Part shown: in pieces, positions 4,123 to 49,964 of the stretch
Layout of the letters: every line of letters begins with the position of its first letter
How positions within the stretch are numbered: position 1 is the first letter of the stretch
From: an uncultured archaeon
GTDB lineage: Archaea > Thermoplasmatota > Penumbrarchaeia > JASLWR01
NCBI GenBank assembly: GCA_964430885.1
Contig: CAYSHM010000005.1
Coordinates: forward strand, 82,948-146,947
Length of the DNA: 64,000 nt
Direction: 5' to 3'
Notes under the pieces: model-generated
Told to the model about the DNA's origin: nothing
The model's database searches: none
The model's input: the letters and a program-made list of their open reading frames with translations, nothing else
Translations under genes and position numbers: made by a program

Positions 4123-5958
4123 TCAAATTTCCACCTTGAACACCTCCGCCCACTGCTCATCAATGCCATCATTGTTCTTATCCGTGGCATTCCTATATAA
4201 TAAATTGAACGGGTACTGGCTGAATTTGGCATAGGAAGCGGGTGTCATCGGCTCGGGCACTACACCCACTTTTTCTTGAACTCCAACATCCAGCATGATG
4301 TGGTCAATTACGATAAAAGATACAGGGGGCAGTCGGGTCTGATTTGTGGTGTTCAATTCATTTAGGCAGTCCCTCCAATCTTCAGCAAACCAGAGCCAAT
4401 GTACATCATCTTCATAGGTCAGGTTCCTGAACTCACCCTTGCCGTAGATTACTTGGGCCAGACGGTGATCGGCAGCAACCGTGAGATTCTTATCAAGGTT
4501 GGAGAACATCCAATCTAGAACCGACATGAACTCATGTGAATAATCCTCATTGTACCCGCCCACCGATTCACGCATGGGATAGGACGAGATACCGCTGGAA
4601 ATAATGACCAGAATAACAGTGACTGATATGAATCCTTTGAAAGCTGAAGAAGACCTGATAAATGGCTGGCGGAATGATAAAATGGGGCCCTTTAGCTTGG
4701 ACCTATCTTCTACTACTTTCCCCATTCTATCCCTGTACTCCAATCCCTTTCGGTAATAGCTATACACTCCCAATCCCGCTACAATGCTCAGGGGTTCCAT
4801 TAAGTATTCAAAATGTCTATCAGGGAAAAGAACGCGGTTCCCGGTAATAAGCGCTATTGAAGCTGAAAGAGTGATGGCTATCAACCAGCCCAATATATAG
4901 GCTCGTGCCTCGGATATCCAGATGTACTTCAGACCTAGAACCGTAAAGGCCAAAATGATAACCAGAGGCAGGGAGATAAAAACAACCTTCCAATTCAATT
5001 TTGCCGTTGTGCCGGGAATTGTGATGAAATGAGCTCCTGCCACCATCACTATAACCATCAATAAAACGCAAACCGACAATATCTGAGAATCATTATTGCC
5101 AGTGTATTCAGGCTTTTTTATTTTTGAAAGATATTTTCGCAGATTATCGGACATAAGAAGCATGAACATCAGGGCTACATAGAACGCTATTACAACCGCC
5201 AATGGGAGCATTTGGGTCCCTGATTTCATGAAGGAACTGAAATATCTCCCTGCCACAATAAGCCAATAGGAAAAGGCGGTTATGGTGAATCCCAATAGGT
5301 AGAGCATCTGATTTTTCAGATCCTCATTACCTTTGGGATTGAAGGCATTTCTGAAAAGGATCATCCCTCCTAGCGATATTATGTACATGTATGTGGTCAG
5401 ATGATGGCTCATTATGAGAAGGGCAGAGGTGAGGACCAAAGGTATCAAGAAGCGTTTTTTCCGTGAATATCTCAAGAAAAAATACAGGCTAGATAGCATA
5501 AAGAAATGACCTATAGTGAGGGGCGCGGCATGGGAGGTTTGATAGAGATGTATGGGATTTACAGCCACAAAAGCTGCAGAGATAAGTGCCAATCTCCTAT
5601 TGGCAAACAGATCATTTACAATAAAATAAATAAGTAAGGCTGTAAGGGCTCCAAAAACAGGTGCGGTATAGGTTAATGACTTCATTATCGATAAACCTGT
5701 GAGTATGTGAACAACACCCCCCAATATGTAAAGTATTGGGAAATATTCGTATGATCCGCCCCATCCTTCGTATGTATTGAAAATTGTCCCGTATTTTACA
5801 AAAGAATTGGTCAACCCATAGTACACTCCAATATCATTACCCCATGCCGCATTTGTCCACGCTGGAATAGAGCGCAGAAGAAAAGCAAATACAATTACTA
5901 TAAAAAGAGTAAGACGGATTCTCCTATTCATAAATCCTAAAAAATTATCAATTCTCAT
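4123..5958 (-). CDS. Polytopic membrane protein with C-terminal soluble domain; GT-C-fold glycosyltransferase-like (PMT/ArnT-like), family uncertain
   Basis: 611 aa, about 12 predicted TM helices in the N-terminal two thirds, then a ~200-aa hydrophilic C-terminal domain. No WWDYG motif, so not called AglB. Confidence 0.4.
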   Translation of the reverse strand: MRIDNFLGFMNRRIRLTLFIVIVFAFLLRSIPAWTNAAWGNDIGVYYGLTNSFVKYGTIFNTYEGWGGSYEYFPILYILGGVVHILTGLSIMKSLTYTAPVFGALTALLIYFIVNDLFANRRLALISAAFVAVNPIHLYQTSHAAPLTIGHFFMLSSLYFFLRYSRKKRFLIPLVLTSALLIMSHHLTTYMYIISLGGMILFRNAFNPKGNEDLKNQMLYLLGFTITAFSYWLIVAGRYFSSFMKSGTQMLPLAVVIAFYVALMFMLLMSDNLRKYLSKIKKPEYTGNNDSQILSVCVLLMVIVMVAGAHFITIPGTTAKLNWKVVFISLPLVIILAFTVLGLKYIWISEARAYILGWLIAITLSASIALITGNRVLFPDRHFEYLMEPLSIVAGLGVYSYYRKGLEYRDRMGKVVEDRSKLKGPILSFRQPFIRSSSAFKGFISVTVILVIISSGISSYPMRESVGGYNEDYSHEFMSVLDWMFSNLDKNLTVAADHRLAQVIYGKGEFRNLTYEDDVHWLWFAEDWRDCLNELNTTNQTRLPPVSFIVIDHIMLDVGVQEKVGVVPEPMTPASYAKFSQYPFNLLYRNATDKNNDGIDEQWAEVFKVEI

Positions 5959-6075: not shown

Positions 6076-9000
6076 TCATGCGGAGAATCTAGGCGGGCGC
6101 GGAACGTAATTCGGGAAAGTGGCGTTCTCTTCTGTTAGTTCAGCCGGTCCTTCTTCCATCAATGTTCCTGAGGGATATTGATCTCCATCTCTAGGATCCA
6201 AGGGTTCCAGTTGAGGGATATATTGAGCATCATCGTCATTATCTTCGGCTGGTACTATCCTGGGAGGAGGAGGGCGCGGGGTCGAAATTGCGACATTAAC
6301 AGCATATAGCCCCCTATCCTGCATTTCATTGCTGTTCATACCATTGTTATAAATGTCATTTTGTTGAAAAGGGCTGCTGCCAGTTTGATATGCGGTATCA
6401 TTTCTAGAGTTAGAGAAAGGCCCAACAGTATAGTGATTACCAGAGCCTTCCCACGGAGATGAATCAGGGGTGATCATAAAATCGCCGACTTCATCACCAT
6501 CATCATCTGTATCACTTCCCTTCTTTATCTTTACCAGGACAAAAATGACCACTGCGAGAATAATCAATAATACCAGCACTAGCACAACAATAATTACAGC
6601 ATTTGAGGATGAACCGTCGTCTGAATTTTCCTGAATGTACCCATTGTTGCCACCATCATCATCCAAATCATCATCGCCGATCCCGCCACCGGGTGAGTTC
6701 GGATCAGAATCCGTGGTCAATGTGAAGTTCCAGACTGGCGAGGACCAATCAGCTATTTCTCCATCCAAAAAGGGCTGAACGGACCAGTAATAAGTAGTGT
6801 CATTCCCACCATTCTCTGGTAACTGATCGAGTATGAAGGTATGATTTGATTGTATCAGTTCATCCGCATATTCTGAACGGGGAGGATTGACCGTTCCCAC
6901 AAGCACAGAATATGTTACCTGCCTTTTTCCAGGATAATCAAGTTCCCATTTAAGATCCGCCTTTTCGCCCTCTATGTTAGCTCCATTACTCGGTTCCTTT
7001 AAGGTAATAATTCCGGTCATTTCAACTGTGAATATCCATTGCTCTGATATATGAGGTGACTCGATACCGTCAAGGACAGGTACAACACGCCAATAATAGC
7101 TCATCATATCCTGAAGGCCTTCAAGTAGGGTATAATTTGAAGACACTCCATTGATTACAGTTCCGTTAATGCCCGGTGAATCACCTATGATAACAATGAA
7201 CTGGAGGGTGGAACTGCCGTTATAGGTGTAGTTCCATTCCAATCCAACCTCCTGACCTGATACCAATCCATTAAGGGATGGGAACAATAAGCCTATTGAG
7301 ACGGGATAACTTACGGAAAAATGGAAAATCTCGGACTGGGGTCCTCGGGATATCCAGTTCAATCGAGCCTTAATACACCAGTAATAGGTGGCCCCATCCT
7401 CCAGGTCCCATAAATTGACCAAACTGCCGGAATTATTAAGTAAATACGGTTCAAGCTCATCTTGCTCGACACCCATAAATATATCGAAGGTCAGCTTTTG
7501 ATTCCCAATATATTCAAAGTCCCAGGCCAACTCTGCATTGTAACCATATACCCAAGAGCGATTGGATGGTTGGGTAAGAGTAATAAGAACATCCAGTTCC
7601 ACAGTAAAATCAAAGACCGCAGAGCTCCAAACCGCCAGGTCTCCGTCAACATAAGGAATCACCTTCCAGTAATATGTCTCACCGTCCTTGAGACCCGTTA
7701 CCATGGTAGTGGTATCCGAAATAAAAGAAGCTACAATCCCCGATGGAGGTGTTTCGGCCCCTAAGAGAACATCAAATCGAACCCCACCCGATCCAGAGTA
7801 ATCCAGGTCCCACTGTAGTTCTATGGAAGTAGTATTGATAATATCTCCCTTATCCGGAAAAGTTGGTTCAACAGAGCCTTGAGGGAGCAGAATGTCAAAG
7901 GAAAATGATATCTCTTGCTCAGTGAAATCTTCATCGTACAGATCGTCATATATCACGGTAACCTCGTCCCCTCCCATCACCTTGATTTCGGAATCCGGTT
8001 TCGATGATGAAGAGGATAGCGTCACCTGACCCTGAAAAATGCCCGTATCATCACCGCTTTCCGTCAAAGAAAAGGTAATGCCTTCATTGTCGCTGTCAGA
8101 ATATATGCTCAGTTGAAGTTCTTCAATTTTTGTGGAATTCCCATTGGCATCCTTATCATTCACAATGACCGTTACTGCCTCACCGGTATAGAAATCTGTG
8201 CCCTGATCCCCGATACCTCCGGAAATCTCAAGGGTTCCAGTTGCAGTACCGTAAATATCCCATAGACTGGAAAAGTAATCGGAAGCTTGATCTGCAAAAC
8301 TGCTGTTGCTTACAAGCAGATTTGTATTAAGCTGATCATAGAGAGCCTCATATGCCCAATTGGTACTCCCCAAAAGGACCTTATCATCGCATAAAATAAG
8401 TTTTGCATGTGTATTCTTGTCAACACTGTCCACCACAGAGGGAATTCTGCTCTCTCTCAATAAATCCAGGGCGTTCAAGTTGTCAGCGCTCACATAATCC
8501 ATATAAGTGGTTTGCTCGAGAATAACCTTCACATCAACTCCTCTGTTGTATGCATTCTCTATTTTGCTTAACAGGATCTGTGCAGCCTGAGATTCGCTTA
8601 TATGATACATAATTAGACGGATTTCATCAGACGCTCCATCAATAATAACCGCAGCCTCATCGTAATATTCATCGCAAACAACGGTTTTTATACCGTTATG
8701 ATCGACTGCTGATAACGTAGGACAAGTGGTCTGGTCCGCCCAAATGCTCTCGTAATAGGATTTGAAAAAAGTTCCAACCGCGGTTGAGTTGACCAATACA
8801 TTCGCCTCATGATTTTCGAAGGTTGATTTCAGATCCCAATTGGTACTGCCTAAAAGCACTTTGTCATCAGCCACAACCATCTTGGAATGAAGTTTAATAT
8901 CATTACCATCCATCTTCACCTCCACACCATTTCCAATCAAATGGTCCTTGGTATCGTTGTTTTCCGGAGGCGTATTATCCATTAGAAATCTGACATCCGC

Positions 9001-9735
9001 ACCCCTTCCGTGAGCATCAATAAGAGACTGGTAAAGCTGGGATACAGAGTACTCCGGATGTGACGGATACAGGATGGAAAGGTACTGAAGAACATAGACA
9101 TAGTCATCTGCTTCCTCTATGAGACCTATGGCTTCTGAGGCGTAATTATTATCGGTAACCAGTTTCCCACCACCACCTTGGACAATGGGTGAATTGAGTT
9201 CGCCCGGAGTCGGAACATTGATGGATTCCCAATTGTCAACTCCGTCAGGAATCCTAGCTATCGAAATATCATCGGCTGTGCTGTCGAATTGAAAAAAATC
9301 CACGATTCCGCTCTGATCATCAAGTAGATTCACCCAGTCTCCTGCGTTATTGAGGCCTACGCCTGTCTGGGAGCCGTAGAATACCATAACCTCGCCGGGA
9401 CCTATACTCGTTCCACCAGGTATGGAATAAGGAGATGTACCACCAGCGGAAACGTCATCCAGCTGCCATCCCGATATGTCAACAGAGGCATCCCCTTTAT
9501 TGTAAAGCTCGATCCATTCGTCATCACCGTAATCCAAGGCGCCTGAACCGTCCCAATCATAGTTCGGATCGGCCAGGAATTCGTTGATAACTATCGGCCC
9601 AGCACGGGTATTTTTTTTTAAAAAATGGCCTAGCTGAAACTTCACCTCAATGTCAGAGTCAGAAGGAAACAAAAAGGCTGATAAGAGTGAAAAGGATATT
9701 AATAACGACAAAATGAAAATAACTGAACTTTTCAT
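6076..9735 (-). CDS. Secreted type-I membrane-anchored surface protein: lamin-tail domain + PLD-family (2x HKD) catalytic domain + 4 Fn3-like (YYW) repeats + TM + Pro-rich cytoplasmic tail
   Basis: Signal peptide MKSSVIFILSLLISFSLLSAF (ATG at 9735 with GGTGA SD; the track start 9759 is TTG). LTD signature PIVINEF..DP..DWD...DEWIELYN...DISGWQL. Two HKD motifs: HSKMVVADDKVLLGSTNW and HAKLILCDDKVLLGSTNW. Four ~100-aa repeats with YYW.V.P..DG....WS..W.F.. Single TM AVIIVVLVLVLLIILAVVIFVLV, then a ~150-aa tail containing PRPPPPR. Confidence 0.7.
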   Translation of the reverse strand: MKSSVIFILSLLISFSLLSAFLFPSDSDIEVKFQLGHFLKKNTRAGPIVINEFLADPNYDWDGSGALDYGDDEWIELYNKGDASVDISGWQLDDVSAGGTSPYSIPGGTSIGPGEVMVFYGSQTGVGLNNAGDWVNLLDDQSGIVDFFQFDSTADDISIARIPDGVDNWESINVPTPGELNSPIVQGGGGKLVTDNNYASEAIGLIEEADDYVYVLQYLSILYPSHPEYSVSQLYQSLIDAHGRGADVRFLMDNTPPENNDTKDHLIGNGVEVKMDGNDIKLHSKMVVADDKVLLGSTNWDLKSTFENHEANVLVNSTAVGTFFKSYYESIWADQTTCPTLSAVDHNGIKTVVCDEYYDEAAVIIDGASDEIRLIMYHISESQAAQILLSKIENAYNRGVDVKVILEQTTYMDYVSADNLNALDLLRESRIPSVVDSVDKNTHAKLILCDDKVLLGSTNWAYEALYDQLNTNLLVSNSSFADQASDYFSSLWDIYGTATGTLEISGGIGDQGTDFYTGEAVTVIVNDKDANGNSTKIEELQLSIYSDSDNEGITFSLTESGDDTGIFQGQVTLSSSSSKPDSEIKVMGGDEVTVIYDDLYDEDFTEQEISFSFDILLPQGSVEPTFPDKGDIINTTSIELQWDLDYSGSGGVRFDVLLGAETPPSGIVASFISDTTTMVTGLKDGETYYWKVIPYVDGDLAVWSSAVFDFTVELDVLITLTQPSNRSWVYGYNAELAWDFEYIGNQKLTFDIFMGVEQDELEPYLLNNSGSLVNLWDLEDGATYYWCIKARLNWISRGPQSEIFHFSVSYPVSIGLLFPSLNGLVSGQEVGLEWNYTYNGSSTLQFIVIIGDSPGINGTVINGVSSNYTLLEGLQDMMSYYWRVVPVLDGIESPHISEQWIFTVEMTGIITLKEPSNGANIEGEKADLKWELDYPGKRQVTYSVLVGTVNPPRSEYADELIQSNHTFILDQLPENGGNDTTYYWSVQPFLDGEIADWSSPVWNFTLTTDSDPNSPGGGIGDDDLDDDGGNNGYIQENSDDGSSSNAVIIVVLVLVLLIILAVVIFVLVKIKKGSDTDDDGDEVGDFMITPDSSPWEGSGNHYTVGPFSNSRNDTAYQTGSSPFQQNDIYNNGMNSNEMQDRGLYAVNVAISTPRPPPPRIVPAEDNDDDAQYIPQLEPLDPRDGDQYPSGTLMEEGPAELTEENATFPNYVPRPPRFSA

Positions 9736-9759
9736 AGATTCACCTATTCCTGTCTGCAA

Positions 9760-10087
9760 CTGGCCATATGCAGCCTATAAATTCCAAAAGAAAATCCGAA
9801 CGCTTTGTCAGTAAGTGTTCTGTAAAATAAATTGCTGTCCTATATTAATCTGTTTCTCAGAATTGGACATATCTTGCAAATGGGGCCATTCTAAAAAACA
9901 TTTCATATCTAAATATACTTTGCAGACCGTCATTTCGAGCTTCATACCAAAACAAATATATTGATACAAATAAATTATTAAGAAACAAGTCGTTTACAAT
10001 ATAGATTAAACTAAGTGTTTTAATTATTAAAAATTCAGGCAATATAAGAAGCGGGCAACTTTGAACAAAAATGCAAGAGGTAATAAC
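9760..10087. promoter_or_regulatory. AT-rich divergent intergenic region between two surface-protein genes; candidate bidirectional promoter (TATA-like ttaattattaaaaatt near 10018-10035)
   Basis: 328-bp non-coding, very AT-rich segment flanked by divergently oriented starts. An SD aagagg lies 7 nt before the ATG at 10088. Confidence 0.3.
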
Positions 10088-12655
10088 ATGGTTAAAAATA
10101 ATTACAAACATTTCTTAATAAAAAGCTCTGCGGCGGCATTGACCCTTCTATTTCTGCTAAGTGCCCTGTCGGCGGTCAATTCATCCACTTTGAAGGAAAC
10201 CTTTGATGGCGGTGAGTCAACAGCAGTATACGATTCCGATGACAAACCCACCTTGACCATGCCTGCTGGTGCGGTCATATTCAACACTTCACTTGACATA
10301 AGCGGGAGTATATCCAATCCTGATGAGTTCACGGAACTGATACCCTCTGATCAGGGAAGCGGAGGGTGGTACGGTGCATCGGCGGAAGATCCTCCTGTAT
10401 CCAATCCTGCCAACCTCAAAACAAATGGTTTTTCAGCCGGACAGAAGAACGATATGTCCGCACCCAATGGCATCTACGTACGCACAAAAGCGAACATGGA
10501 AAACCAGGGCCCATACCATCATTTCTCATTTACAGTCCCCTATCCCGAAGCGGATATCGGCAATATGGAACTTAAATGGAGGGGGAAAGGAGAGGAGCCT
10601 CTCGTGGATATGCTTGACCGATACAAAGCAACAATATACGTTTGGAACCATCAGGGTACAAACTGGGTGCAGCTGGATTCCTATGGACTTTCCCCTTCAT
10701 CGTCTTTAATGTGGCTCAGCGGCAATATATCTTCCCACATATCCAATTACATTGATAACAATGATGAGGTCCACCTCCTTGTCAGATCTTGGATCTTCGG
10801 AACAACTGAAGCCTACATCGATACTGATTATGCAGTCCTGAACATTTCCTACCGAGGTGGAGGTCAATATCCAGAAGGACTATCGCTGAAACTCAAAGAG
10901 GGAGGAGTGAATGTTTGGGACTATCCCGGCGTCCTCCAGGGTATAACAACCCTAGGTAATTCCAAACTGAAGGCGACCATTCAGGAGATGTCAAATGAGG
11001 CATATGAGCTCGGTTCGGAAACATTGACCCTGACCTTTATTATCGGTAATTCCGGGGGAGGGATAATTCAGCTATCCAATCTATCGGTGGAATACGGACT
11101 TGAACCCTGGGTGGATACAGATGCGATAAGCGCATCATTCCAGGAAGACCTAGATCCCATGGGACTCATTGATCTGCATGACCATTTCAGGGACGACGAA
11201 GCCCTGGAGGATCTGACCTTTGAGATAATATACCAATCACAACCCTCGAAGGTCTCAGCTGAACTGGGTGCTAACGGCCATACCCTTGACTTCACATCTG
11301 AGGCCGATGATTGGAACGGAGAAGTGTCAATGGGAATACGAGCTACGGATACGGATGGACTTTTCTGCGAGTTCTTCAACATTACCGTAACTGTCATTCC
11401 AGTGAACGATGAGCCCTTCACACTAGGCATTCCACATCAGATATGGTACGAAGATAAAACCTGCCCGGAGGATTTTCTGGACCTATGGAACTATTTCGGG
11501 GACGGCGGATGGAAGGAGGATCTAGTAAGCAATATGACCTTCACCTTGCCTCCTGATAAGAATCCGCTTTTAGCAGATAAAACCGCTTTGGGATCCATTA
11601 CTGACAACCGATATTTTCATGTGATACCCTGGTATAACTACAACGGCAATGTTGCATTCGTGGTCAGAGCTGAGGACCGCGGCGGAGATATTATTGAAGC
11701 AAATCTTACTATGGAAATAATGCCCACTAACGACCCGCCCCAGTTCAATTCGACCCCCCCTGAGATAATTGATGAAGGAAAAAATTATACTTATACCCCC
11801 CAGACCTGGGATCTTGACGGTGATGCTCTCACCCTCACAGTGGAGTCGGGGCCGGAGGGTTTGATATCAAATGGAACTGGAATAATCTGGATGCCCGAAG
11901 ACAAGGATGTAGGTATACACAACATTTCTCTTCTACTTAGTGATAGTGAGAACTATACTTATCAGAATTTTACGCTAACCGTTCGGAATGCAAATGACGC
12001 TCCAGTCCTAGATGAGATTGACCCGATTACACTTGAAGTTGGAGATATTCTTAATCTCACAATTACAGCGGACGATCCAGATATGATGATCGACCCATTT
12101 GAAATGCTGACATTTACCGACGATTGCAGTCTTTTCGACGTAGGTTATGATACAGGGAAAATATGGTTCAAACCCTCATGGATGCATATAGGAATACATA
12201 ATTTTACACTGAGTGTTTCAGATGGAAAGGGGCTGGCCGATCAAATAGATGTTACATTGAGAATTACCCTCCCTAACGGAACATCATTGCCGGAGATCAA
12301 AGTTCTGAAACCGGAAAATAGAACTGACCTTGTAGCAGGGGAAATGAACGATTATGAAATTGAGATACTTAATCACGAAATAGGAGTGAACTGGAATATA
12401 ACCTGGTACTATGAAGGAAACATCATCGGATATGGATTAGCCATAGACCATATGTTCAAAACTCCTGGAAAGCATACCATAAAGGTGGCTGCAAAGGACG
12501 GAGAAGCTGAGCTGGAGGCTGAATTCGATGTTACGGTTGATGAAGAAAGGAAGAAAAAGAAAGATGATTCTCCAGGTTTTGGAATCATACTACTAACCAC
12601 AGTGCTCAGTTTGTCCCTGGTCGTGTATTCAAGAAGAAGAATTAGAAGTGACTAG
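10088..12655 (+). CDS. Secreted cadherin-like repeat surface protein with C-terminal TM anchor
   Basis: Signal peptide AAALTLLFLLSALSAVNS. Cadherin-type domain-end motifs VNDEPF, TNDPPQF, NANDAPV. C-terminal GFGIILLTTVLSLSLVVY TM, then RRRIRSD. ATG at 10088 after an AGAGG SD; the track start 10061 is TTG. Confidence 0.6.
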   Translation: MVKNNYKHFLIKSSAAALTLLFLLSALSAVNSSTLKETFDGGESTAVYDSDDKPTLTMPAGAVIFNTSLDISGSISNPDEFTELIPSDQGSGGWYGASAEDPPVSNPANLKTNGFSAGQKNDMSAPNGIYVRTKANMENQGPYHHFSFTVPYPEADIGNMELKWRGKGEEPLVDMLDRYKATIYVWNHQGTNWVQLDSYGLSPSSSLMWLSGNISSHISNYIDNNDEVHLLVRSWIFGTTEAYIDTDYAVLNISYRGGGQYPEGLSLKLKEGGVNVWDYPGVLQGITTLGNSKLKATIQEMSNEAYELGSETLTLTFIIGNSGGGIIQLSNLSVEYGLEPWVDTDAISASFQEDLDPMGLIDLHDHFRDDEALEDLTFEIIYQSQPSKVSAELGANGHTLDFTSEADDWNGEVSMGIRATDTDGLFCEFFNITVTVIPVNDEPFTLGIPHQIWYEDKTCPEDFLDLWNYFGDGGWKEDLVSNMTFTLPPDKNPLLADKTALGSITDNRYFHVIPWYNYNGNVAFVVRAEDRGGDIIEANLTMEIMPTNDPPQFNSTPPEIIDEGKNYTYTPQTWDLDGDALTLTVESGPEGLISNGTGIIWMPEDKDVGIHNISLLLSDSENYTYQNFTLTVRNANDAPVLDEIDPITLEVGDILNLTITADDPDMMIDPFEMLTFTDDCSLFDVGYDTGKIWFKPSWMHIGIHNFTLSVSDGKGLADQIDVTLRITLPNGTSLPEIKVLKPENRTDLVAGEMNDYEIEILNHEIGVNWNITWYYEGNIIGYGLAIDHMFKTPGKHTIKVAAKDGEAELEAEFDVTVDEERKKKKDDSPGFGIILLTTVLSLSLVVYSRRRIRSD

Positions 12656-15401: not shown

Positions 15402-18400
15402 TCAAGCCATTCTCATAGCGTCCTGCGCCAACTCCAAAGCCTGTCTAAACTCGCCTTTTTCATAATATTTCTTGGCCTTTACAAAGGCTTCCTTGGCCTC
15501 TGGATTGCGGGATTCCTCGATTATCTCCCTTGTGGCCTCAACAATAACTCCCGCTTTGGTCCTCAACAGTCCGTTAAGGATCTGATTGGCCATTTCTATG
15601 CATTCCTTGGTAATATCATAGGATATCTCCACCTCTCCTTGGTTCATGAGGTTGAACGAACGGTCAACCTGAACCTTCAACTCAGATATATCCCCGTTGA
15701 ACGAACTTATTTCGAACATCAATCGTTCACATTCGTTAATATTCTCCTTTATCTTTTTCTTGAATAGACCCTGGCCTGCAACTTCTATGTCCCTTATAAG
15801 AGAAGCCTTCAAATCCATGGCCAATTCAAGATCGCCATTGCCGAGATGCGACAGAATTCTTGAATGCTGGGTGCGGAGTTGATTAGTACCTGCTCCCTGC
15901 AAAGCTAGTGCCCTAATTTTTTCTTCCCATGAAGGAGATTCTTTCTCCATATCGCTGATATTTTTCCATCTAATAAGCTGTTTGGTCACCATTATGCTCT
16001 CGGCCAGCAATTCCTTGGATAGATCCCATTCGCCCCTTTCCATGCACCTCCTGCCCTCAGTTAATAAACTCCAAGCCTGAGATACGTCAATACCTTTATT
16101 ACGGGTTCCCCTCACCAGAGCCTCCCCTCTTTTATATTTTTCCTGAAGCTTCTCGCTCATATACTTGTTCATACTCTGATTGTAATGGTCCATAGCCTTA
16201 TTGGCCAAACTATAGGCATACCTGTAATCTCCTGACGAATATTTTCTTTCGGACCTGTTAAGTTCATTTCTATAATGCTCCTCATCTACCATATCACTTC
16301 TAGAGGAAAGAACCGCATCCAGATCCTGTATTGCATTTCTGGCGGATTCCCTCTCCTTTCTCTTGATCAGCTCTTTGGAAAAATATACCATTTCCTCACA
16401 GCTCGTTCTGACCTGGGAAACATCACCGTCCTTTGCAGCCTGCTTTGTACGGCTGAACATATCCCTCAATGAGGGGGCACGCTCAAGTGAGACTCCAATC
16501 CTCTTCATCTCAGATATAGTGGTCTCCAGTATTGTTCGTGCCTTTTTCCTGTTCTGCATTTTTTTGGCCGCCTTTAGGGATTCATCGGCCTTATCCAGAT
16601 GTTTCTTCGCAGCATGAACATCATTTTCTCCCAAAGCATGGTCCGCTTTATCCAGCCATTTATCCATTTCAACAAACAGGGCTGAATGAAAGCTCAACTT
16701 GGCATATTTCATTTTTAGTTTTTCATGCCTCTGGATAAGCGCTACTTTCATGGCCCTCCTCCCCAGCATGGAGGTCAACTCCTTCAGCGACCTAATAACC
16801 TTTAACCTGGAAACCTGGTTTTCAATTGGTATATTATCCAATTCTCTACTGTAAAACTCAAAAGCCTCTATACCTTCTATACTCATCTGTTTCAGACCCC
16901 TCACTCCACCCATCTGGTCGATTGCTTTGTTGATGGATCTGATATCCCTATTGATCAAGTTCTCAGTCCTTTTGATAATCCGGTCCTTGACATCATCCAT
17001 ATTAACAAGGTTCAGACGGCCCTTACCCTGGAGAGATTTCCCATCTATAAAAGTAATTTTCTCTATCTGCTCATAGATCTCCCTGGCAATATCTCTGGGC
17101 AATAGCGGGGACAGATTGTAGAAGTAATCCTTGACATCCAGCAGTTTTCTATCAAAACGCCATTTTTCCTGACTTTTCTCCTCCACCTCCATGAAGTCCT
17201 GAAAAATCAGCATAATCTTAGTAAGATCGTGTTCATCCGCACTCTCCATGGATTTCAGCAATGCTGATAATTTGACCACTGGTTCCTCACCCCATTTCTG
17301 GGCCTTGGCCTTGTTCAGAACCGCTCTTTCGAGGCCTATCAGTTCCGCCTTAATCTGGCTGCCACGGAGGTTTCGGGTTTTGACTGCATTTTCCAGTGAT
17401 TCCCTAGCAGCCTTCTCGGCGCCCTCTAGATTGCCCTCCTCCAGCATTAATATAGCTTTTTGCAGATAACGGAAGCTTGACGATTGGTCGATACCGCCAG
17501 ACCCCAGTTCCTTCACCTTCCTGCGTGTGGCCTTTATTGTATCGGACACATGCTTTCTACGATGGGCCTCAAATTCTCTCTTAATCTCACGGGAAGTTTC
17601 CTCCAGCTTGATACCAGCTCCTTCAAAATCCCCCTCCTCCATAAGCTTCTCTATATACTCTACTTTCCTCAGATAGCTCTCTTTCCCCTTCTTCATGGTC
17701 AGAAGACGCGTCTTCAGATACTCTATGCGGGATCTGTAATCATGAGCCTTTAAAAGGTCCTGACATATTCCTTTGAGAGAACGCAATTTCAGTGTGCATT
17801 CCTCATACTCCTCGGAATGATACAGCCTTTTTCCTTTTTCAAAAGTGGTTCTCAGGTGGTCAATTTCTCCAGATATCCTGGCGGTTCTATCCATCAGTTC
17901 ATTTAGCTCCCTTATCAGATTCTGGGAATCGGTCTTGAAAAAGGTATCGCTGATATTTTGTGCAGATTTAAGACTCTGAGCTACTAATATCAAACCTCTT
18001 TTTGTATCCTCGTTGTTGAAGCATTCCCAAGCTTTTTTCAGAAGAAGCTGGGGGCCGGTCATATCTATATCTAGGGTCTGATATCTATCAATGAGAGTTT
18101 CGGCCTTTTCCATCTCGATCTCCAAGCGGGACAGACGGAACTGGTGCTCTCTCTCCCGGGCACTGGTCAGAGCATGTTCTATGTTATCCGAAATAGACTC
18201 GAACTCCTCGTCATCGATACCCTCTCTTCCTCTCAGCAGTTCTCTCATATCCTCCAACAAGCGTTTGGCCTTTGCTATCTTGACCCCCTCTCGTTCAATA
18301 TCTATGCATATATAGACCGCAGCTTCAAGCTTCTTATTCAGGGTATCTATGTTGAAAAGATATTTCTGGCTGTCAAGATGCATCTCCGATTCAGCTATCA

Positions 18401-21400
18401 GCTTCTCGCCCATATCCCAATTCTCTTTCTTGATCTCCTCGGTGCACCTTATAAAGTTCTCGGCTGCTCGGTTCAATGAAGATTTGGGTATTCCCAAACC
18501 CACTAATTCGTTGTAATATATCTTGACAGCTGTCATCCGGTTCTTTATCCTGGATTTCAGATAATTTGTCTTTGCCTTGTCCAGCATATTTTGGGCCGAT
18601 TCAAACAGGCTCCTTGCAGATTGAATGTCACCCTGCTGATACAGCTCTCGTACCCTTTTCACTATCTTTTCAGGCTGTTTGACATTTATACCTTTGATGC
18701 TCGCCTTGTCCATCTCTGCACTGAGATTTTCCAAGGATTCCCTGAGATCAATTTTTTCCCGAATGGAAAACGCCGAGTCTATGGCCTTATTATAAGTTTG
18801 AATGGAAGAATCATAGTATTCCTTCTCCAGAAATATATCCGCCCTTTCTTTTAGATCCAGAATATGATCCGCGACCCCATCTTTTTCCTGTAAATAATTT
18901 AGCAGTTCATTCAATTTGGACCGGGAATCGTATGCTTTTTTCTTGATGTAATCCCTATTCAACGACTGTATGTCAGTCTCCAATTTGGACACTTCTTCCA
19001 CGAATATATCATCCATCTTATCATTGGACACTTTTTTAAACTGGTCCAATCTGCCGTAGTAATCCGCAAGATCGACACTGCCCTGAGAATCATCTTTGAT
19101 AAAATCCAAAACCTTTTCTATCCTAAATAGTTGCCTTGCGGCCAATTTGAAATCATATTCTCTTCTGCGTTCTCTTGCTTCTCTGAAAGCGGCACCACAA
19201 TATTCCTTTACTTTATCCAAGCTCCCTTCAGAGAACATTTCCTTTGCATCTTCATAGAATGTCTTCATTAGTGTTGTGTCAAAATCCAATGAAGATATGT
19301 GAGCAATCTCTCGCCTAAGAGATTCCAGTTCCTCTTTGACATTCTTATGCTCCAGGGCTTTGGACAGATCAGAGCAGATCTCATCCATCTGTCCCATAAG
19401 CCATTTGGCATCCTTGATATTGCCTTCCTTGTAATAATCGTCCAATCTTACCAGGGCTTCGGCCAATTGTTCAGTGTCCAAACCTTGTATCTCATAATTA
19501 TTAAGCATTGACCGGGTAGAATCTAGATAATTACAGACCCTCTTGACCTCTAATTCAGTTATCAGATCATCAATATCTGCTCTTCTTCTCTCAATCAAAG
19601 TCTTTGCCTTCTCGAAGGCGCCATCGCCAATTGAGCGCTTGATCTCTAAAAGTTTCATTTCCATATCTAATACGTTCTCCCCCAGCTGGGAAATATCAAA
19701 GAGCTCATCCTCCATATCGTAGAGCTTACCAAGGAGATCATTTGAGATATAATTCTCATATGCCTTCTTTGCTCTCTCCCAGCCCATGGATATACAGCTA
19801 GCGGCATTGTCATGATCATTTTTCTCAAGTCTTGACCTGGCCTTTTCAATGAAAGACCTTAGGGGATCCACATCAATACCCAAGTCAGTAAGCTCATCGA
19901 GTCTTTGCCTGAACTGGTCCAACTCGGTCCAATAGTGACTGACATATTCATTTTCAATATCAACCTCTATATCGAACAAACCCTTCCGCACCTCATCCAG
20001 TCTTCCAGTCTTGAAAATGTCGGTAATGCCTCTCAATCTGCTGTCCAATGTAAGTATGTCTTTCCCTTTTACCCCAAGCTTCCGGCATTTTTCCCTGAGT
20101 GCTTTTAATTTTCTAAATAATTCAAGTATATTCGTTTTGCTCTTAATCATGCTCCTGACCCTATCGGACAGTTCAAAAGCAGCCCGGTATCTTTGAGCTT
20201 CGAAAAGGTCGATTACCCTGTCAAGTTCCTTCTTCATAAGTTCGATGTCCTGACCAGCTTCTAGGAGTTCCGGAAAAATAACCTTGCTTTCAGATATTAA
20301 TTCAAGTATCCTTTCCTGCTGATAGGTTCCCTTTAATCTTTGTGCAATATCCCATGCACGCTTCACATCTTTACTAGCCTTTTCAATATTATCCTTCTCC
20401 ATGGAGGCCCGAGCATCGGATAATAATTCCTCCAGCGTGGAAGTGTCCATTGAAACATTTCGCCATTTTTTAATTTCCGATTCTATGGAGAACATCCTCT
20501 CTTTTAGAACCGGAACTTTCTTTCTCTGCATCTTGATGTCCAAAGAACTATCTATCCTCTTGAGCAAATCTCTGACGCCGTCTAGGTCATCCTCATTTAT
20601 CAACCTCAAGGCATCCTCAACCATCTCATCAACATCTTCGAGATCGAAATCCTCCTTCCTCAGGTCCTCGATCCTTCTCTCGGTGTTATCAAGCATTCCG
20701 GCTATAGAATTCCTTAAATGTACCCTTTTTTTATCTGCAATATCCTTCTCCAAGTTGTCGAATAATGCTTTCAGGGCCTTGAAATCGCCCTCCTCTATCC
20801 TATTCTTGATAGCCATCAATCTCTCCTCCAAAACTGAGGTATCTATTCCCTTTCTTTCCAGCATTTTCAGTGACGAGTGAACTTCCACCAATGTCTTTAA
20901 ATGGTTCCTTTTCATGAACTCATCATCGGCTTCAGTGATGTATTTATAGGCGCGTTTAACAGTACTCAATGCTGATTCTACATCATCACTTCTAAGCTTG
21001 ATCTCCGCAGCTCTCAACAAAATCTCGGCCTTCACGGGCTTCAGCCCTGCCTTTTTGAGTTTGACAAGCCTGCTCTCGGCTTCCTCCCAGAGCTGTTTGG
21101 CTTGGGAAGCGTTTTCCTGAAGCTCCCTAGTCCTGATGATTGCTTCCATTTCACCCAATAATTCTCTGCCGAGAATTACATTTGACCTATCCAAGGCCTC
21201 CTGTATATGCGGGTATTTGGTCTTCAGAAGGGCAACATCCATACCATTGGCAGCCATCGCCCCCACAGATTCCTTCAGAAGTGAGAATCGGCTATGGATC
21301 ATATCGACATTATATTTTTCCAGTTTGGCCTTGGACAATAAAGCCCCTTCTCGGGCAACTTTGGATACAAAGGGATAATCTCCCTGATAGAACGCATTTT

Positions 21401-25340: not shown

Positions 25341-25925
25341 CAAATACACCGGGATTAGTTTTTAGAAGGTTATATAATACCAAAATCTGTACAGTTTTGG
25401 ATTTATAAGGTTATCTCACTGAAATAATTATTGGTTTTATTAAAGTTTTTCCAGATATATTCCCTACTAAATACTCCTCTTGATAAAATAAGCATCATGC
25501 CGTTTGCGATAATTGATACGGCATATTGGAATATTTAATCAAACTCAAGGATCCTTTCGGGACTCCCACGGAAGCCCCCTAATCTAGACTAAATATGCAT
25601 CATACTATATACCAGCCCAATCTATAATATACAATAATTATATAGTATGAAATATTAACTACCTCGGCCCAAAGGCTTAATATTGATTTGAATGGAATAT
25701 GTTAATTATTGAAGATATTATTAGATCAAGAATGATGAAAGAAAATAATGCCAGTTGAATTGGTTTTTCGACCAAATAGAGAAACAAATTCCTTCCCTGG
25801 ATCATGAAGTAATAATTAAAAGCATTTTAAATGTCATAATATTGCCTCGAATATTTGAACAAAAACGTTAAGGAATTCATGTGATAAGCTCTTAATCAAA
25901 GCTGGAAGCGGCCAAGGTGTTGAAA

Positions 25926-35470: not shown

Positions 35471-35728
35471 TATTAATAAATCAAGATGCATCCGATTTAA
35501 TAATCTAATTCGTTTTAACTATTCTTATCCGTGACCCTTTCAGAAAAACCTTAATCAATGTTTAAATAATTCATAGTCCTTGCAACTTGTGCATCGTACA
35601 GGTGCGGTAGCTTCCGTTACTAATTCGCCACTTATAGGCAATATTATAATCTCAATTATAGCCATAGACAATACATCCCGATTTATGTGAAATAGATTTG
35701 AATGATGAACTGAAAAAAGGTGATAAAA

Positions 35729-48797: not shown

Positions 48798-49964
48798 ATG
48801 GCAAGCAAGGATTACTATGAAATTCTGGGTGTGGAGAGAAATGCCACAGAGAAAGATATCACCCGGGCATATAGAAAGCTTGCAATGAAATATCATCCTG
48901 ACCGAAACCCTGATGATAACGGAGCTATTGAAAAGTTCAAGGAAGCTACCGAAGCCTATGAGGTTCTATCTGACTCGCAGAAAAAGAACCAGTATGATCA
49001 GTATGGGCATGTTAACGGTTTTGACATGGGCGGAGGTATGAGGATGGACAGTGCAATGGATATTTTTGAGCATCTGTTCAAGAATATGGGTTTCGGAGGG
49101 CCTTTTGGCGATATCGGAGGGAGGGCCGGAAATGATTTTTTTTCCGGATTCAGGACTGGAGGAAGTTCCCGTTCCCGGAGATCCGGCAGGATAGATGGAG
49201 AAGACGTCCGATTCGACATAGAAATTGACATATTTCAGGCTGCGGCAGGATATAAGAAGACCATAGAAGTGAAAACCCTTGGTCAATGTCTGGACTGCGA
49301 AGGTACCGGTCTTGGAGCTGAAGGTGAGATGGTGATCTGCCCCGACTGCGGAGGCACAGGCGAGATAAAAGAGGTCAAAAGAGCCGGATTCGCACAGATC
49401 GTCAATATCCAGGCCTGTCCTGAATGCAAGGGGGCGGGAGAGACCATTGAGGGCGAATGTGATAAGTGTAACGGACGCGGAAGAAAGCCCCAGAAAAGGA
49501 AGATAGCTATTGATATCCCGCCAGGTGTATCCGACAGCTCCAGCCTTCTATTGAAAGGGAAAGGGAATGCAGGTATAAAAGGAGGTTTTAATGGAGACCT
49601 ATATGTAATGGTGAACATACCTGAACATGAATTCTTCAAAAGAAGGGGAGACGACATACTTGCTGAACTCCCTATAACCATAGGTCAAGCCCTGCTTGGC
49701 GATACTATAAATGTCCCCACACTTCACGGTGAAAAGAAGGTCAAGATCAAACCTGGTACTGAACCGGATGAGATAATAAGCCTGAAGAACATGGGTATGC
49801 CTCATTTGAACAGGAAGGGAAACGGTGACATGTTCATCAGGATCTTCTTTGTTATGCCTGATAAATTAACACGTCAGCAGAAGAAACTGGCTAAACAATG
49901 GTGGGAATCCGAAAAAAAGGATCGGGGCGCTATCCATAAGGTGCTTAAGGATAAATCCGAATAA
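48798..49964 (+). CDS. dnaJ: Chaperone DnaJ (type I: J-domain, G/F region, 4x CxxCxGxG zinc finger, C-terminal domains)
   Basis: DYYEILGV...[14 protein letters not shown] with HPD. Gly/Phe-rich linker. [32 protein letters not shown] zinc-finger repeats. Confidence 0.9.

What the first reader, a model, noticed from the sequence alone, without database searches (positions are those of the whole stretch)
6076..9735. Cell-surface lamin-tail-domain + phospholipase-D (two HKD) + Fn3 protein: candidate anchored extracellular nuclease/phosphodiesterase
The N-terminal LTD (VINEF...DEWIELYN...DISGWQL) is followed by a complete PLD-superfamily catalytic unit with both HxK(x4)D(x6)GSxN motifs: HSKMVVADDKVLLGSTNW and HAKLILCDDKVLLGSTNW. 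Four YYW-type Fn3-like spacers and a TM anchor with a Pro-rich cytoplasmic tail follow. LTDs are recurrently fused to extracellular nucleases and phosphatases. The PLD superfamily includes Nuc-type endonucleases. A membrane-tethered extracellular DNA/phosphodiester hydrolase for nucleotide or phosphate scavenging or DNA processing is a reasonable reading. I have not seen this exact combination described.
Basis: partly seen in the sequence, partly recalled or inferred. Interest (0 to 1): 0.6.

Follow-up and report, generated by a model that had tools for sequence, protein, structure and literature searches.

The report
Archaeal surface-anchored LTD–PLD phosphodiesterase
An uncultured marine archaeon encodes a cell-surface enzyme of the phospholipase-D/Nuc superfamily held on a stalk outside the cell; it most likely cuts phosphodiester bonds in external DNA or RNA to scavenge nutrients, but no tool here could settle its substrate.

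Summary
Window 6076-9735 (minus strand) is one 1219-aa gene. In order it encodes a signal peptide, a lamin-tail domain (LTD; Pfam E 3e-19) and two PLDc_2 halves (E 3e-35) that carry both quoted HKD motifs.

Seven full or partial orthologues (41-47% identity) come from marine metagenomes and MAGs labelled "uncultured archaeon". They keep every catalytic residue.

The catalytic unit models confidently (pLDDT 92.6) as a compact two-HKD fold. Its nearest solved structures are secreted Serratia SpPLD and the PLD3/PLD4 exonucleases. Per half-domain, the family profile scores the nucleases Nuc, Zucchini and NucT (60-88 bits) above E. coli ClsA/B/C (23-57) and PssA (11-23). A half-domain tree is unresolved, with 2-3% bootstrap.

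The whole ectodomain is very acidic, and gene neighbourhoods are not conserved.

LTD plus PLDc_2 also occurs in Alteribacter and in another MAG protein. The closest functional analogues are the LTD-bearing surface nucleases Hvo_1477 and ExeM. Verdict: a new variant of a known kind, of moderate interest.

The parts
6076..9735 (-). Complete coding sequence: 1219 aa plus the stop codon at 6076-6078
   Evidence: the identical 1219-aa protein P0074 is in public collections; orthologues
9740..9745 (-). AGGTGA, a Shine-Dalgarno-like site 4 nt upstream of the ATG. It supports the ATG at 9735 as the start (inferred).
   Evidence: sequence read directly
9776..9781 (-). TTTATA, a possible archaeal TATA box 40 nt upstream of the ATG (inferred, untested)
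   Evidence: sequence read directly
9655..9735 (-). N-terminal signal peptide or hydrophobic segment (residues 1-27, MKSSVIFILSLLISFSLLSAFLFPSDS)
   Evidence: Kyte-Doolittle scan; the orthologues have an equivalent N-terminus
9289..9606 (-). Lamin-tail domain (residues 44-149)
   Evidence: Pfam PF00932, E 3.4e-19, 69.7 bits against cutoff 34.3
8731..9162 (-). N-terminal PLDc_2 half (residues about 192-335)
   Evidence: Pfam; AF2 model; alignment
8839..8889 (-). First HKD motif, H283-S-K285-(x4)-D290-(x5)-G296-S297-T-N299. It is followed by Glu310 at window 8806-8808.
   Evidence: His, Lys and Asn in 60/60 family members, Glu in 59/60
8251..8685 (-). C-terminal PLDc_2 half (residues about 351-495)
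   Evidence: Pfam best stretch 365-492; AF2 model
8359..8409 (-). Second HKD motif, H443-A-K445-(x4)-D450-(x5)-G456-S457-T-N459. The position equivalent to Glu310 is Asn470.
7882..8211 (-). Conserved beta-rich domain of no assigned family (residues 509-618). It carries an invariant D527-x-D529-x-N531-x-N533 and an E-x-G-x-D-x-G motif.
   Evidence: invariant columns; no Pfam hit; sub-threshold NCBIfam match to an anammox S-layer glycoprotein (E 1.7e-9); poorly modelled (pLDDT 33-64)
6691..7881 (-). Four tandem Fn3-like domains (residues 619-715, 716-812, 813-913, 914-1015), which form the stalk
   Evidence: pLDDT about 90, all-beta; Foldseek top hits are FnIII arrays; repeats homologous to each other, z 6.8-13.9; precomputed fn3 hits on the orthologues
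6604..6690 (-). Acidic, Gly/Asp-rich linker next to the membrane (residues 1016-1044)
6532..6603 (-). Single transmembrane helix (residues 1045-1068) followed by KIKK, consistent with positive-inside topology
   Evidence: Kyte-Doolittle maximum 3.97; conserved in the orthologues
6079..6531 (-). Cytoplasmic tail of 151 aa: 12.6% Pro, acidic, poorly conserved apart from a loose C-terminal [YF]P..(P)PP motif

Best explanation
The gene encodes a type-I membrane-anchored ectoenzyme of an uncultured marine archaeon.

Topology (inferred from sequence): the N-terminal signal sequence exports the protein. The single C-terminal TM helix, with its positive-inside KIKK and a 151-aa cytoplasmic tail, retains it in the membrane. 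A stalk of five beta-sandwich domains (one unassigned domain plus four Fn3-like) holds the head away from the lipid bilayer. At roughly 4 nm per domain, from my own knowledge, that is some 15-20 nm.

Head: an LTD followed directly by a compact two-HKD PLD-superfamily unit. The modelled fold shows the two halves packing as a pseudo-dimer, as in Nuc dimers and PLD3/4.

Chemistry (inferred from established PLD-superfamily mechanism): His283/Lys285/Asn299 and His443/Lys445/Asn459 form one active site. One His attacks the phosphodiester to give a covalent phosphohistidine. The other His protonates the leaving group and then activates water. No metal ion is needed.

Substrate (inferred, not shown): most likely extracellular nucleic acid. 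The products would feed phosphatases, nucleotidases and salvage pathways, supplying P, N and C. The LTD would act as an accessory substrate- or surface-binding module, as proposed for other LTD-bearing nucleases.
For: - Domain calls and motifs are all present, and the catalytic residues are invariant in seven orthologues.
- The catalytic unit models with high confidence (pLDDT 92.6, pTM 0.90).
- Foldseek matches it to SpPLD 7E0M (E 1.6e-22, TM 0.77-0.79) and to the PLD3/PLD4 ssDNA exonucleases (E about 1e-20 to 1e-21).
- The family profile scores nuclease-type HKD domains highest per half-domain.
- The compact GSxNW-(x8)-N-x-E-x-N segment after HKD1 aligns with Zucchini, Nuc and NucT. The N-halves of ClsA, ClsB and ClsC lose alignment there.
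- Both glycine motifs are GS. PMC8004604 reports a GS first motif in the nucleases and GG in true phospholipid PLDs.
- The unit is about 320 aa, with no room for the gate loops of lipid PLDs.
- Its nearest relatives outside the orthologue group are about 350-aa proteins, most of which begin with signal-peptide- or lipoprotein-like N-termini on visual inspection of about 45 of them. The subfamily is therefore probably extracytoplasmic.
- The most similar LTDs sit in multi-LTD proteins with nucleic-acid-binding OB folds, and one has a PHP phosphoesterase domain.
- Precedents for surface nucleases with LTD exist: Hvo_1477, important for eDNA metabolism in Haloferax; ExeM, where deleting the LTD lowers in vitro activity; and halophile DNases.
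- Weak context support: one orthologue lies next to a purple acid phosphatase, and another lies next to PurA and a phosphoribosyltransferase.
Against: - No direct evidence identifies the substrate.
- The deep nodes of the half-domain NJ tree are unsupported (2-3% bootstrap).
- ClsB scores about as well as SpPLD over the full length (112 against 114 bits).
- No curated NCBIfam cutoff is reached for any family.
- The closest full-length structure is named a phospholipase.
- PLD3-like luminal enzymes may also act on lipids (PMC12242099).
- The LTD and the catalytic unit are both strongly acidic (net -20 and -28; pI 4.1-4.3), which does not favour binding a polyanion. This holds for all surface proteins of this organism, and seawater would screen the charges.
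- No OB-fold or HhH DNA-binding module is present.
- Most LTD partners in the hit list are CotH, not nucleases.
- Gene neighbourhood is not conserved among the orthologues.
Confidence: 0.5

Rival explanations
1. It is an ecto-phospholipase D. The same surface-displayed HKD head hydrolyses head groups from exogenous phospholipids, in membrane vesicles, detritus or the membranes of cells the archaeon touches. It releases choline, ethanolamine, serine or glycerol and phosphatidic acid, either as nutrients or to damage neighbouring cells.
For: - The best full-length structural and sequence match is secreted Serratia SpPLD, deposited as a phospholipase D.
- The superfamily name-giver acts on lipids.
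- Zucchini/MitoPLD and the PLD3-like luminal enzymes have disputed lipid versus nucleic-acid activities.
- The acidic surface is no obstacle for zwitterionic lipids.
- A long stalk could reach foreign membranes.
Against: - SpPLD's own authors found nuclease-like loops, no substrate gate and a positively charged loop in place of the acyl-binding loop. They report no lipid assay in that paper.
- The target lacks the insertions of Streptomyces and eukaryotic PLDs, which score only 37-44 bits.
- The first glycine motif is GS, not the GG of confirmed lipid PLDs.
- No lipid-binding module (C2, PX/PH or a hydrophobic lid) was detected.
Confidence: 0.22
2. It is a broad or different phosphodiesterase. 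The head cleaves other environmental phosphodiesters, such as glycerophosphodiesters, teichoic-acid-like or phosphoglycan polymers, or nucleotide-sugar-like compounds. It would be a general scavenger of dissolved organic phosphorus diesters.
For: - The PLD chemistry is generic for phosphodiesters.
- Relatives of the same two-HKD unit are fused to a ConA/LamG lectin-type domain (P0221), which suggests glycan-associated substrates in some members.
- One orthologue is adjacent to a purple acid phosphatase.
- The LTD is a general extracellular module.
Against: No characterised PLD-superfamily member with such a substrate appeared among the nearest matches. The nearest characterised domains are nucleases.
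Confidence: 0.15
3. It is a lipid synthase or transferase of the cardiolipin or phosphatidylserine synthase type, working on the cell's own membrane.
For: E. coli ClsB scores 112 bits against the family profile over two domains. The NCBIfam ClsB and Cls models give sub-threshold hits. JGI names some relatives 'PS/PGP/cardiolipin synthase-like'.
Against: - The scores are far below the curated cutoffs (42 against 281 bits; 33 against 290 bits).
- The catalytic head is N-terminal, exported, and separated from the only TM helix by about 530 residues of beta-sandwich stalk. It therefore cannot readily reach its own bilayer.
- The N-halves of Cls diverge after the G-S/G-x-N motif, where the target stays Nuc-like.
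- PssA scores only 11-23 bits per half.
Confidence: 0.03
4. It is mainly an adhesin or structural surface protein whose PLD head binds a ligand rather than turning it over.
For: The window encodes several other giant acidic surface proteins with Ig-like, Kelch and LamG modules. The Fn3 stalk plus LTD is adhesin-like.
Against: All catalytic residues of both HKD motifs are invariant across orthologues at only 41-47% overall identity. They are also invariant across 60 wider family members. That argues for retained catalysis.
Confidence: 0.05

Closest known systems
Haloferax volcanii Hvo_1477 (surface lipoprotein with thermonuclease plus LTD; eDNA metabolism), PMC3929857
   Same: It is archaeal, cell-surface attached, and combines a phosphodiester-cleaving catalytic domain with a lamin-tail domain. 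It has been tied experimentally to use of extracellular DNA.
   Different: Its catalytic domain is a Ca-dependent staphylococcal-nuclease fold, not HKD/PLD. It is anchored by an N-terminal lipobox, not a C-terminal TM helix. It has no Fn3 stalk, its LTD is C-terminal to the nuclease, and it is much smaller.
ExeM (Shewanella) / Xds-type extracellular nucleases, PMC6085458
   Same: It has a signal peptide, an N-terminal LTD, a phosphodiesterase domain and a C-terminal hydrophobic anchor. The LTD contributes to activity in vitro but is dispensable for extracellular DNA degradation in vivo.
   Different: It carries OB-fold (YhcR-like) and metal-dependent EEP domains, neither of which is present here. 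It is bacterial.
Nuc (pKM101, 1BYR), NucT (6EHI) and Zucchini/MitoPLD (4GGJ): single-HKD nucleases
   Same: They give the best per-domain sequence scores (60-88 bits). They share the compact domain with HxK(x4)D(x6)GSxN followed by N-x-E-N, and they catalyse without metal ions.
   Different: They carry one HKD per chain and work as homodimers, and they are 155-200 aa soluble, periplasmic or outer-mitochondrial-membrane proteins. The target has both halves in one chain. The curated NucT cutoffs are not reached (67 against 211 bits), and the tree placement is unsupported.
Mammalian PLD3/PLD4 (5'-3' ssDNA/RNA exonucleases)
   Same: They have two HKD motifs in a single chain and are membrane-anchored, with the catalytic domain on the non-cytoplasmic side. 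They are top structural matches (Foldseek E about 1e-20 to 1e-21, TMq 0.74-0.77; 58-65 bits).
   Different: They are type II (N-terminal) anchored, larger (about 420-aa catalytic domain with insertions), lysosomal with an acid optimum, and only 14-17% identical. They have no LTD or Fn3 stalk.
Serratia plymuthica SpPLD (7E0M), PMC8004604
   Same: It is a secreted two-HKD enzyme of similar size. It is the best full-length match by sequence profile (114 bits) and by fold (E 1.6e-22). Its loops and GS first motif are nuclease-like.
   Different: It is a stand-alone soluble protein. Its second motif is GT, and its substrate is not established in the paper. It is 17% identical.
Database LTD plus PLDc_2 proteins (Alteribacter keqinensis WP_183163875.1; MAG protein P0015 with 4 LTD, 4 PLDc_2 and CARDB)
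   Same: They combine the same two Pfam families in predicted secreted proteins.
   Different: They are 22-23% identical in the PLD unit, have different domain order and number, and lack the Fn3 stalk and TM anchor. They are uncharacterised.

Membership tests
PLD (HKD) superfamily, Pfam PLDc_2 PF13091 | Score above the Pfam gathering threshold | tested here: met
   121.5 bits against 27, two stretches
PLD (HKD) superfamily, Pfam PLDc_2 PF13091 | Two HxK(x4)D(x6)G[SG]xN motifs with catalytic His, Lys and Asn | tested here: met
   H283/K285/D290/G296-S297/N299 and H443/K445/D450/G456-S457/N459; invariant in the orthologues and in 60/60 family members for His, Lys and Asn
PLD (HKD) superfamily, Pfam PLDc_2 PF13091 | Bilobal alpha/beta pseudo-dimer fold | tested here: met
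   AF2 pLDDT 92.6; Foldseek probability 1.00 to 7E0M, PLD3/4, F13 and PLD1/2
PLD (HKD) superfamily, Pfam PLDc_2 PF13091 | Catalysis through a covalent phosphohistidine intermediate, independent of metal ions | not testable with these tools
   Needs enzymology
Nuc/NucT nucleases (NCBIfam NF010490-NF010493) | Score at or above the curated equivalog cutoff | tested here: not met
   Best 67.4 bits against cutoff 211; 53.9 bits for the whole protein
Nuc/NucT nucleases (NCBIfam NF010490-NF010493) | Single HKD per chain, active as a homodimer | tested here: not met
   Two HKD halves in one chain
Nuc/NucT nucleases (NCBIfam NF010490-NF010493) | Phylogenetic grouping of the half-domains with Nuc, Zuc and NucT | tested here: inconclusive
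   They are sister to the family in the NJ tree, but with 2% bootstrap. Per-domain profile scores are highest for Nuc and Zuc.
Nuc/NucT nucleases (NCBIfam NF010490-NF010493) | Endonuclease activity on DNA or RNA | not testable with these tools
   Needs an assay
Cardiolipin synthases (TIGR04265, ClsB NF008427) | Score at or above the curated cutoff | tested here: not met
   33 against 290 bits, and 42 against 281 bits
Cardiolipin synthases (TIGR04265, ClsB NF008427) | Catalytic domain positioned at the cell's own membrane | tested here: not met
   The head is N-terminal and is separated from the only TM helix by about 530 residues of beta-sandwich stalk and linker
Lamin-tail domain, Pfam PF00932 | Score above the gathering threshold | tested here: met
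   69.7 bits against 34.3, residues 44-149
Fibronectin type III-like domains | Pfam fn3-type model above threshold in the target | tested here: not met
   Only Pur_ac_phosph_N at 20 bits (cutoff 30) and Ig_Rha78A_N at 19.6 bits. Four orthologues carry precomputed PF00041 hits; three of these are marked faint.
Fibronectin type III-like domains | Seven-strand beta-sandwich fold in tandem | tested here: met
   pLDDT about 90; top Foldseek hits are FnIII arrays, E 8e-15
ExeM/Xds-type LTD nucleases | LTD plus OB-fold plus EEP nuclease domain | tested here: not met
   LTD is present, but no OB-fold or EEP hit
PLD3/PLD4 exonucleases | Two-HKD luminal domain with a type II N-terminal anchor | tested here: not met
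   Two HKD and fold similarity are met, but the anchor is a C-terminal TM helix, type I. Identity is 14-17%.
DISARM DrmC (NF038319; PADLOC DrmC) | Curated cutoff reached and DISARM gene neighbours present | tested here: not met
   56.6 against 133 bits. The neighbours are Ior, a surface protein and a membrane protein, with no drm genes.
Archaeosortase/PGF-CTERM surface proteins | PGF motif plus TM helix plus a short basic tail at the extreme C-terminus | tested here: not met
   The TM helix is followed by a 151-aa tail, and there is no PGF motif

The most novel reading that the evidence does not exclude
The stalked HKD head may not be a nutrient nuclease. It could instead be a contact-dependent phospholipase or phosphodiesterase that a planktonic archaeon uses on the membranes or vesicles of other cells, such as phytoplankton or bacteria it attaches to. 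That would make it an archaeal surface device for feeding or antagonism, analogous in chemistry to bacterial PLD effectors. A milder novel reading is the first metal-independent HKD-type ecto-nuclease of marine archaea, an enzyme class not yet counted in oceanic eDNA and DOP turnover. I put that milder reading at about 0.4 probability.
Probability: 0.1. Interest if true: 0.65.

Novelty: new variant of a known kind. Interest (0 to 1): 0.38.

Why it matters
Extracellular DNA and other phosphodiesters are large pools of labile phosphorus and nitrogen in the sea. The enzymes planktonic archaea use on them are essentially unknown; the one archaeal eDNA gene studied, Hvo_1477, is a metal-dependent SNase.

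If this small family is a nuclease, it adds a metal-independent catalytic type to that process. The family comprises seven orthologues plus two further fragments, from Tara and other marine metagenomes. It would also extend the recurring 'anchor + LTD + phosphodiesterase' design to a fourth catalytic fold.

The gene offers a clean test of what the prokaryotic LTD does. It also offers a test of whether the widespread secreted compact two-HKD proteins are nucleases or lipases; 3050 cluster representatives match at E<1e-3.

It is not a surprise in kind. Both domains, their extracellular setting and even their combination are already visible in databases.

Tried and rejected
1. Half-domain phylogeny. 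The first run timed out. The NJ tree of 72 half-domains puts Nuc, Zuc and NucT as sister to the family, but bootstrap is 2-3%. I rejected it as evidence either way. References were ClsA/B/C and PssA fetched from E. coli K-12, a plasmid Nuc homologue, and Nuc, Zuc, NucT, SpPLD and K4 fragments read from PDB alignments.

3. Lineage assignment failed. Exact look-ups of 10 window proteins returned no names. A homology search with the DUF711 protein gave only about 54%-identical hits of mixed bacterial and archaeal origin. The only labels are 'uncultured archaeon' on orthologue MAGs, plus NurA/HerA and Nop genes on orthologue contigs. A Poseidoniia (MGII/III) origin is my guess only.

4. Conserved gene neighbourhood: none was found across five orthologue contexts. 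The purple acid phosphatase and the PurA/PRTase neighbours are single cases.

5. Domain 509-618 has no Pfam family even at E<=10, and the AF2 model is poor there.

6. The downstream 611-aa membrane protein has no Pfam or PDB sequence hit.

7. A defence-system reading (DrmC/MkoB hits in PADLOC) was rejected. The hits are generic PLDc_2 similarity, the protein is exported, and no partner genes are present.

8. Charge analysis was meant to support DNA binding. It showed the opposite: the head is acidic. That is a property of all exported proteins of this organism, so it does not decide the question.

9. The window contains no second LTD or PLD gene, no tRNA and no Rfam match.

Full report
**What is there**

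Window 6076-9735 on the minus strand is one uninterrupted ORF. The mechanical ORF begins at a TTG at 9759.
- An AGGTGA site lies 4 nt upstream, and a TTTATA lies 40 nt upstream.
- The encoded N-terminus, MKSSVIFILSLLISFSLLSAFLF, is one of only two hydrophobic segments in the protein.
- The orthologues begin the same way.
- A 1219-aa entry identical to this reading is in public collections. A JGI gene residues shorter would lose the signal sequence.

**Domain content**

- Pfam gives LTD at residues 44-149 (E 3.4e-19, 69.7 bits against a cutoff of 34.3). It gives PLDc_2 in two stretches (E 2.7e-35) and the PLDc active-site motif twice.
It has an invariant DxDxNxN pattern and no Pfam family even at E<=10. 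It gives a sub-threshold match to a segment of an anammox S-layer glycoprotein and models poorly.
- Four repeats follow (residues 619-1015). They are homologous to each other (z 6.8-13.9 against shuffles). They model as seven-strand beta domains at pLDDT about 90 and match tandem FnIII arrays best in the PDB.
- An acidic Gly/Asp linker comes next, then a TM helix (residues 1045-1068, followed by KIKK), then a 151-aa tail with 12.6% Pro.
- The tail length excludes a PGF-CTERM/archaeosortase anchor.
- Sixteen N-x-S/T sequons are present, 14 of them in the ectodomain.

**Is it real and conserved**

Seven orthologues at 41-47% identity share the whole architecture. Two further fragments, P0095 and P0213, also belong to the family. 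All come from marine metagenomes, including Tara Oceans.

Two species-representative MAGs that carry the gene are labelled 'uncultured archaeon'. Orthologue contigs also carry NurA/HerA and Nop genes. I could not fix the lineage further.

All HKD, GSTNW and Glu310 positions are invariant in the orthologues. In a 60-member alignment of the wider family, His, Lys and Asn of both motifs are 60/60. The Glu after HKD1 is 59/60, while the equivalent position after HKD2 varies (Glu in 32/60; Asn470 in the target). The active site is therefore intact and, as in the whole family, slightly asymmetric.

**What kind of PLD unit**

An exhaustive search of 1.84 billion cluster representatives found 3050 relatives at E<1e-3. 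Outside the orthologue group the nearest (30-35% identity) are proteins of about 350 aa. On visual inspection of about 45 of them, most begin with signal-peptide- or lipoprotein-like N-termini. The subfamily is therefore probably extracytoplasmic.

The AF2 model of residues 185-515 is confident (pLDDT 92.6, pTM 0.90). Foldseek against the PDB ranks secreted Serratia SpPLD 7E0M first (E 1.6e-22, TM 0.77-0.79). The PLD3/PLD4 ssDNA exonucleases and vaccinia F13 follow. PLD1/2, PPK1 and PS synthase rank lower.

The table gives bit scores against a profile of the family.

| Reference | Bits | Scope |
|---|---|---|
| SpPLD | 114 | full length |
| E. coli ClsB | 112 (57 + 53) | two domains |
| E. coli ClsA | 82 (42 + 38) | two domains |
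| E. coli ClsC | 70 | two domains |
| Nuc | 82 | single domain |
| Klebsiella plasmid Nuc homologue | 79 | single domain |
| Zucchini | 76 | single domain |
| K4 | 73 | |
| PLD3 | 65 | |
| NucT | 62 | single domain |
| PPK1 | 45 | |
| PLD2 | 44 | |
| Streptomyces PLD | 37-41 | |
| PS synthase (PDB) | 31-32 | |
| E. coli PssA | 33 | |

The Klebsiella plasmid protein scores 191 bits against 1BYR, so it is a true Nuc homologue.

A generic half-domain HMM gives this order: Nuc and Nuc-like 86-88, Zuc 75, SpPLD N-half 74, NucT 60, ClsB 44-52, K4 N-half 48, ClsA 42-44, ClsC 23-29, PssA 11-17.

The segment after HKD1 (GSTNWDLKSTFENHEANVLV) aligns residue for residue with Zuc (GSLNWTTQAIQNNRENVLI), Nuc and NucT. 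The N-halves of ClsA, ClsB and ClsC lose alignment there. PMC8004604 notes that nucleases carry GS and true lipid PLDs carry GG in the first glycine motif. The target has GS in both.

A neighbour-joining tree of 72 half-domains puts the single-HKD nucleases as sister to the family, but with 2-3% bootstrap. No NCBIfam curated cutoff is met for NucT, DrmC, Cls or ClsB.

My reading is that this is a nuclease-leaning, unclassified branch of the superfamily. It is clearly not a lipid synthase by placement or topology, but sequence alone does not assign its substrate.

**The LTD**

- ExeM has LTD plus OB folds plus an EEP domain. Deleting the LTD lowers in vitro activity.
- A large nuclease/LTD protein lies in Izemoplasmatales DNA-degradation loci.
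- LTD-bearing secreted DNases occur in halophiles, where LTD is proposed as an accessory DNA-binding domain.
- In archaea, Hvo_1477 is a surface lipoprotein with thermonuclease and LTD, important for eDNA metabolism.

In my own search the most similar LTDs (42-52% identity) are in multi-LTD proteins. Three of the six I scanned carry OB folds (tRNA_anti-codon, and BOF in two), and one of those also has a PHP domain. Against that, by my count 28 of the 73 hits pair LTD with CotH, and others pair it with beta-helix or Ig modules. LTD is thus a general extracellular module and only weak evidence for a nuclease.

LTD plus PLDc_2 is not unique to this family. It occurs in Alteribacter (906 aa) and in a 2064-aa MAG protein with four LTD and four PLDc_2 stretches. 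I found no paper that discusses the combination.

**Points against a nuclease**

- The LTD (net -20) and the PLD unit (net -28, pI 4.3) are strongly acidic in all orthologues. Relatives range from pI 4.1 to 10.2.
- The other exported proteins of this window are equally acidic (pI 4.3-4.4, K+R 5-7%), while cytoplasmic ones are ordinary. The acidity is therefore a trait of the organism's exoproteome. It remains a caveat for polyanion binding.
- There is no OB or HhH module.
- Gene context is not conserved. The target's neighbours are Ior genes, an Ig-repeat surface protein and an unannotated 611-aa polytopic membrane protein. One orthologue abuts a purple acid phosphatase, and another abuts PurA and a phosphoribosyltransferase. 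These are suggestive single cases only.
- PLD3-type luminal enzymes are still debated as possible lipases.

**Mechanism proposed**

- Shown: the domains, the motifs, the fold and the two hydrophobic segments.
- Inferred from topology rules: Sec export, type-I anchoring, and the head displayed on a five-domain stalk too far from the membrane to act on the cell's own lipids.
- Inferred from established PLD-superfamily chemistry: one active site formed by both HKD halves, a covalent phosphohistidine intermediate, and no metal requirement.
- Inferred, roughly even odds: the substrate is extracellular nucleic acid and the role is nutrient scavenging. Ecto-phospholipase D and a generic phosphodiesterase are the live rivals.

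**Comparison and novelty**

The protein works like the known 'anchor + LTD + phosphodiesterase' surface nucleases (Hvo_1477, ExeM/Xds). It uses a different catalytic fold (HKD), a different anchor (C-terminal TM helix with a long tail) and an Fn3 stalk. [quoted passage not shown] It is not a member of the Nuc/NucT, Cls, DrmC, PLD3/4 or ExeM families by their defining features.

I rate it a new variant of a known kind, with interest 0.38. It is a sound and testable candidate, but neither its parts nor their setting would surprise a specialist.

Noticed in passing
window 25917-35060 (+): A 3047-aa ORF with KS, AT, at least three PP-binding (ACP) domains, KR and PKS_DH_N. This is a type I PKS / PfaA-like (PUFA-synthase-like) megasynthase on what appears to be an archaeal contig. 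That would be unusual for archaea.
   Followed up: partly
window 15402-22346 (-): A 2314-aa ORF with no real Pfam hit. It has strongly skewed base composition (GC skew about -0.24, AT skew about -0.17 over 16-24 kb) and is rich in both acidic and basic residues (D+E 18.7%, K+R 18.0%).
   Followed up: no
window 4123-5958 (-): A 611-aa polytopic membrane protein lies 117 nt downstream of the target on the same strand. It has no Pfam or PDB sequence hit. To my eye it resembles a GT-C type glycosyltransferase. The target carries 14 N-x-S/T sequons in its ectodomain. The pairing is not conserved in the orthologue loci.
   Followed up: partly
window-wide (for example 6076-9735, 10061-12655 and 50167-55494, compared with 35720-37003 and 48798-49964): Exported and surface proteins of this organism are extremely acidic and poor in Lys/Arg (pI 4.1-4.4, K+R 4.7-6.7%). 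Cytoplasmic proteins are ordinary (pI 5-9).
   Followed up: yes
window 7882-8211 (-), residues 509-618 of the target: A conserved beta-rich domain with invariant DxDxNxN and ExGxDxG motifs. It belongs to no Pfam family, gives a weak match to a segment of the Kustd1514 anammox S-layer glycoprotein, and models poorly with AF2. It may be a Ca-binding stalk module.
   Followed up: partly
window 6079-6531 (-), the cytoplasmic tail: The tail is poorly conserved, but it ends in a loosely shared [YF]P-x-[YQ]...(P)PP motif across the orthologues: QQxYPYQE..PP in four of them and FPNYVPRPPRF in the target. Its meaning is unknown.
   Followed up: no
window 50167-55494 (+) and 10061-12655 (+): Further large surface proteins: a 1775-aa protein with a Kelch propeller, Laminin_G_3 and Big_9, and an 864-aa protein with Big_9, He_PIG, PKD and AF_1625_C.
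   Followed up: no
window 22455-25349 (-): A 964-aa ORF in which the L-lactate permease domain covers only residues about 177-552. The extra N- and C-terminal regions are unassigned.
   Followed up: no
L015 2948-4423 (-), next to orthologue P0008: A 491-aa purple-acid-phosphatase-type protein (Pur_ac_phosph_N, Metallophos, Metallophos_C) is convergent with the orthologue. This is a possible diesterase plus monoesterase pairing for phosphate scavenging, seen in one genome only.
   Followed up: partly
L016 2693-8887 (+), protein P0015: A 2064-aa MAG protein with four LTD and four PLDc_2 stretches plus CARDB. It is an independent and much more elaborate LTD-PLD fusion.
   Followed up: partly
window 9646-9735 (-): One public gene call (P0001, JGI, 1189 aa) starts 30 codons downstream at a GTG and so drops the signal sequence. 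The 1219-aa call (P0074) agrees with the ATG start.
   Followed up: yes
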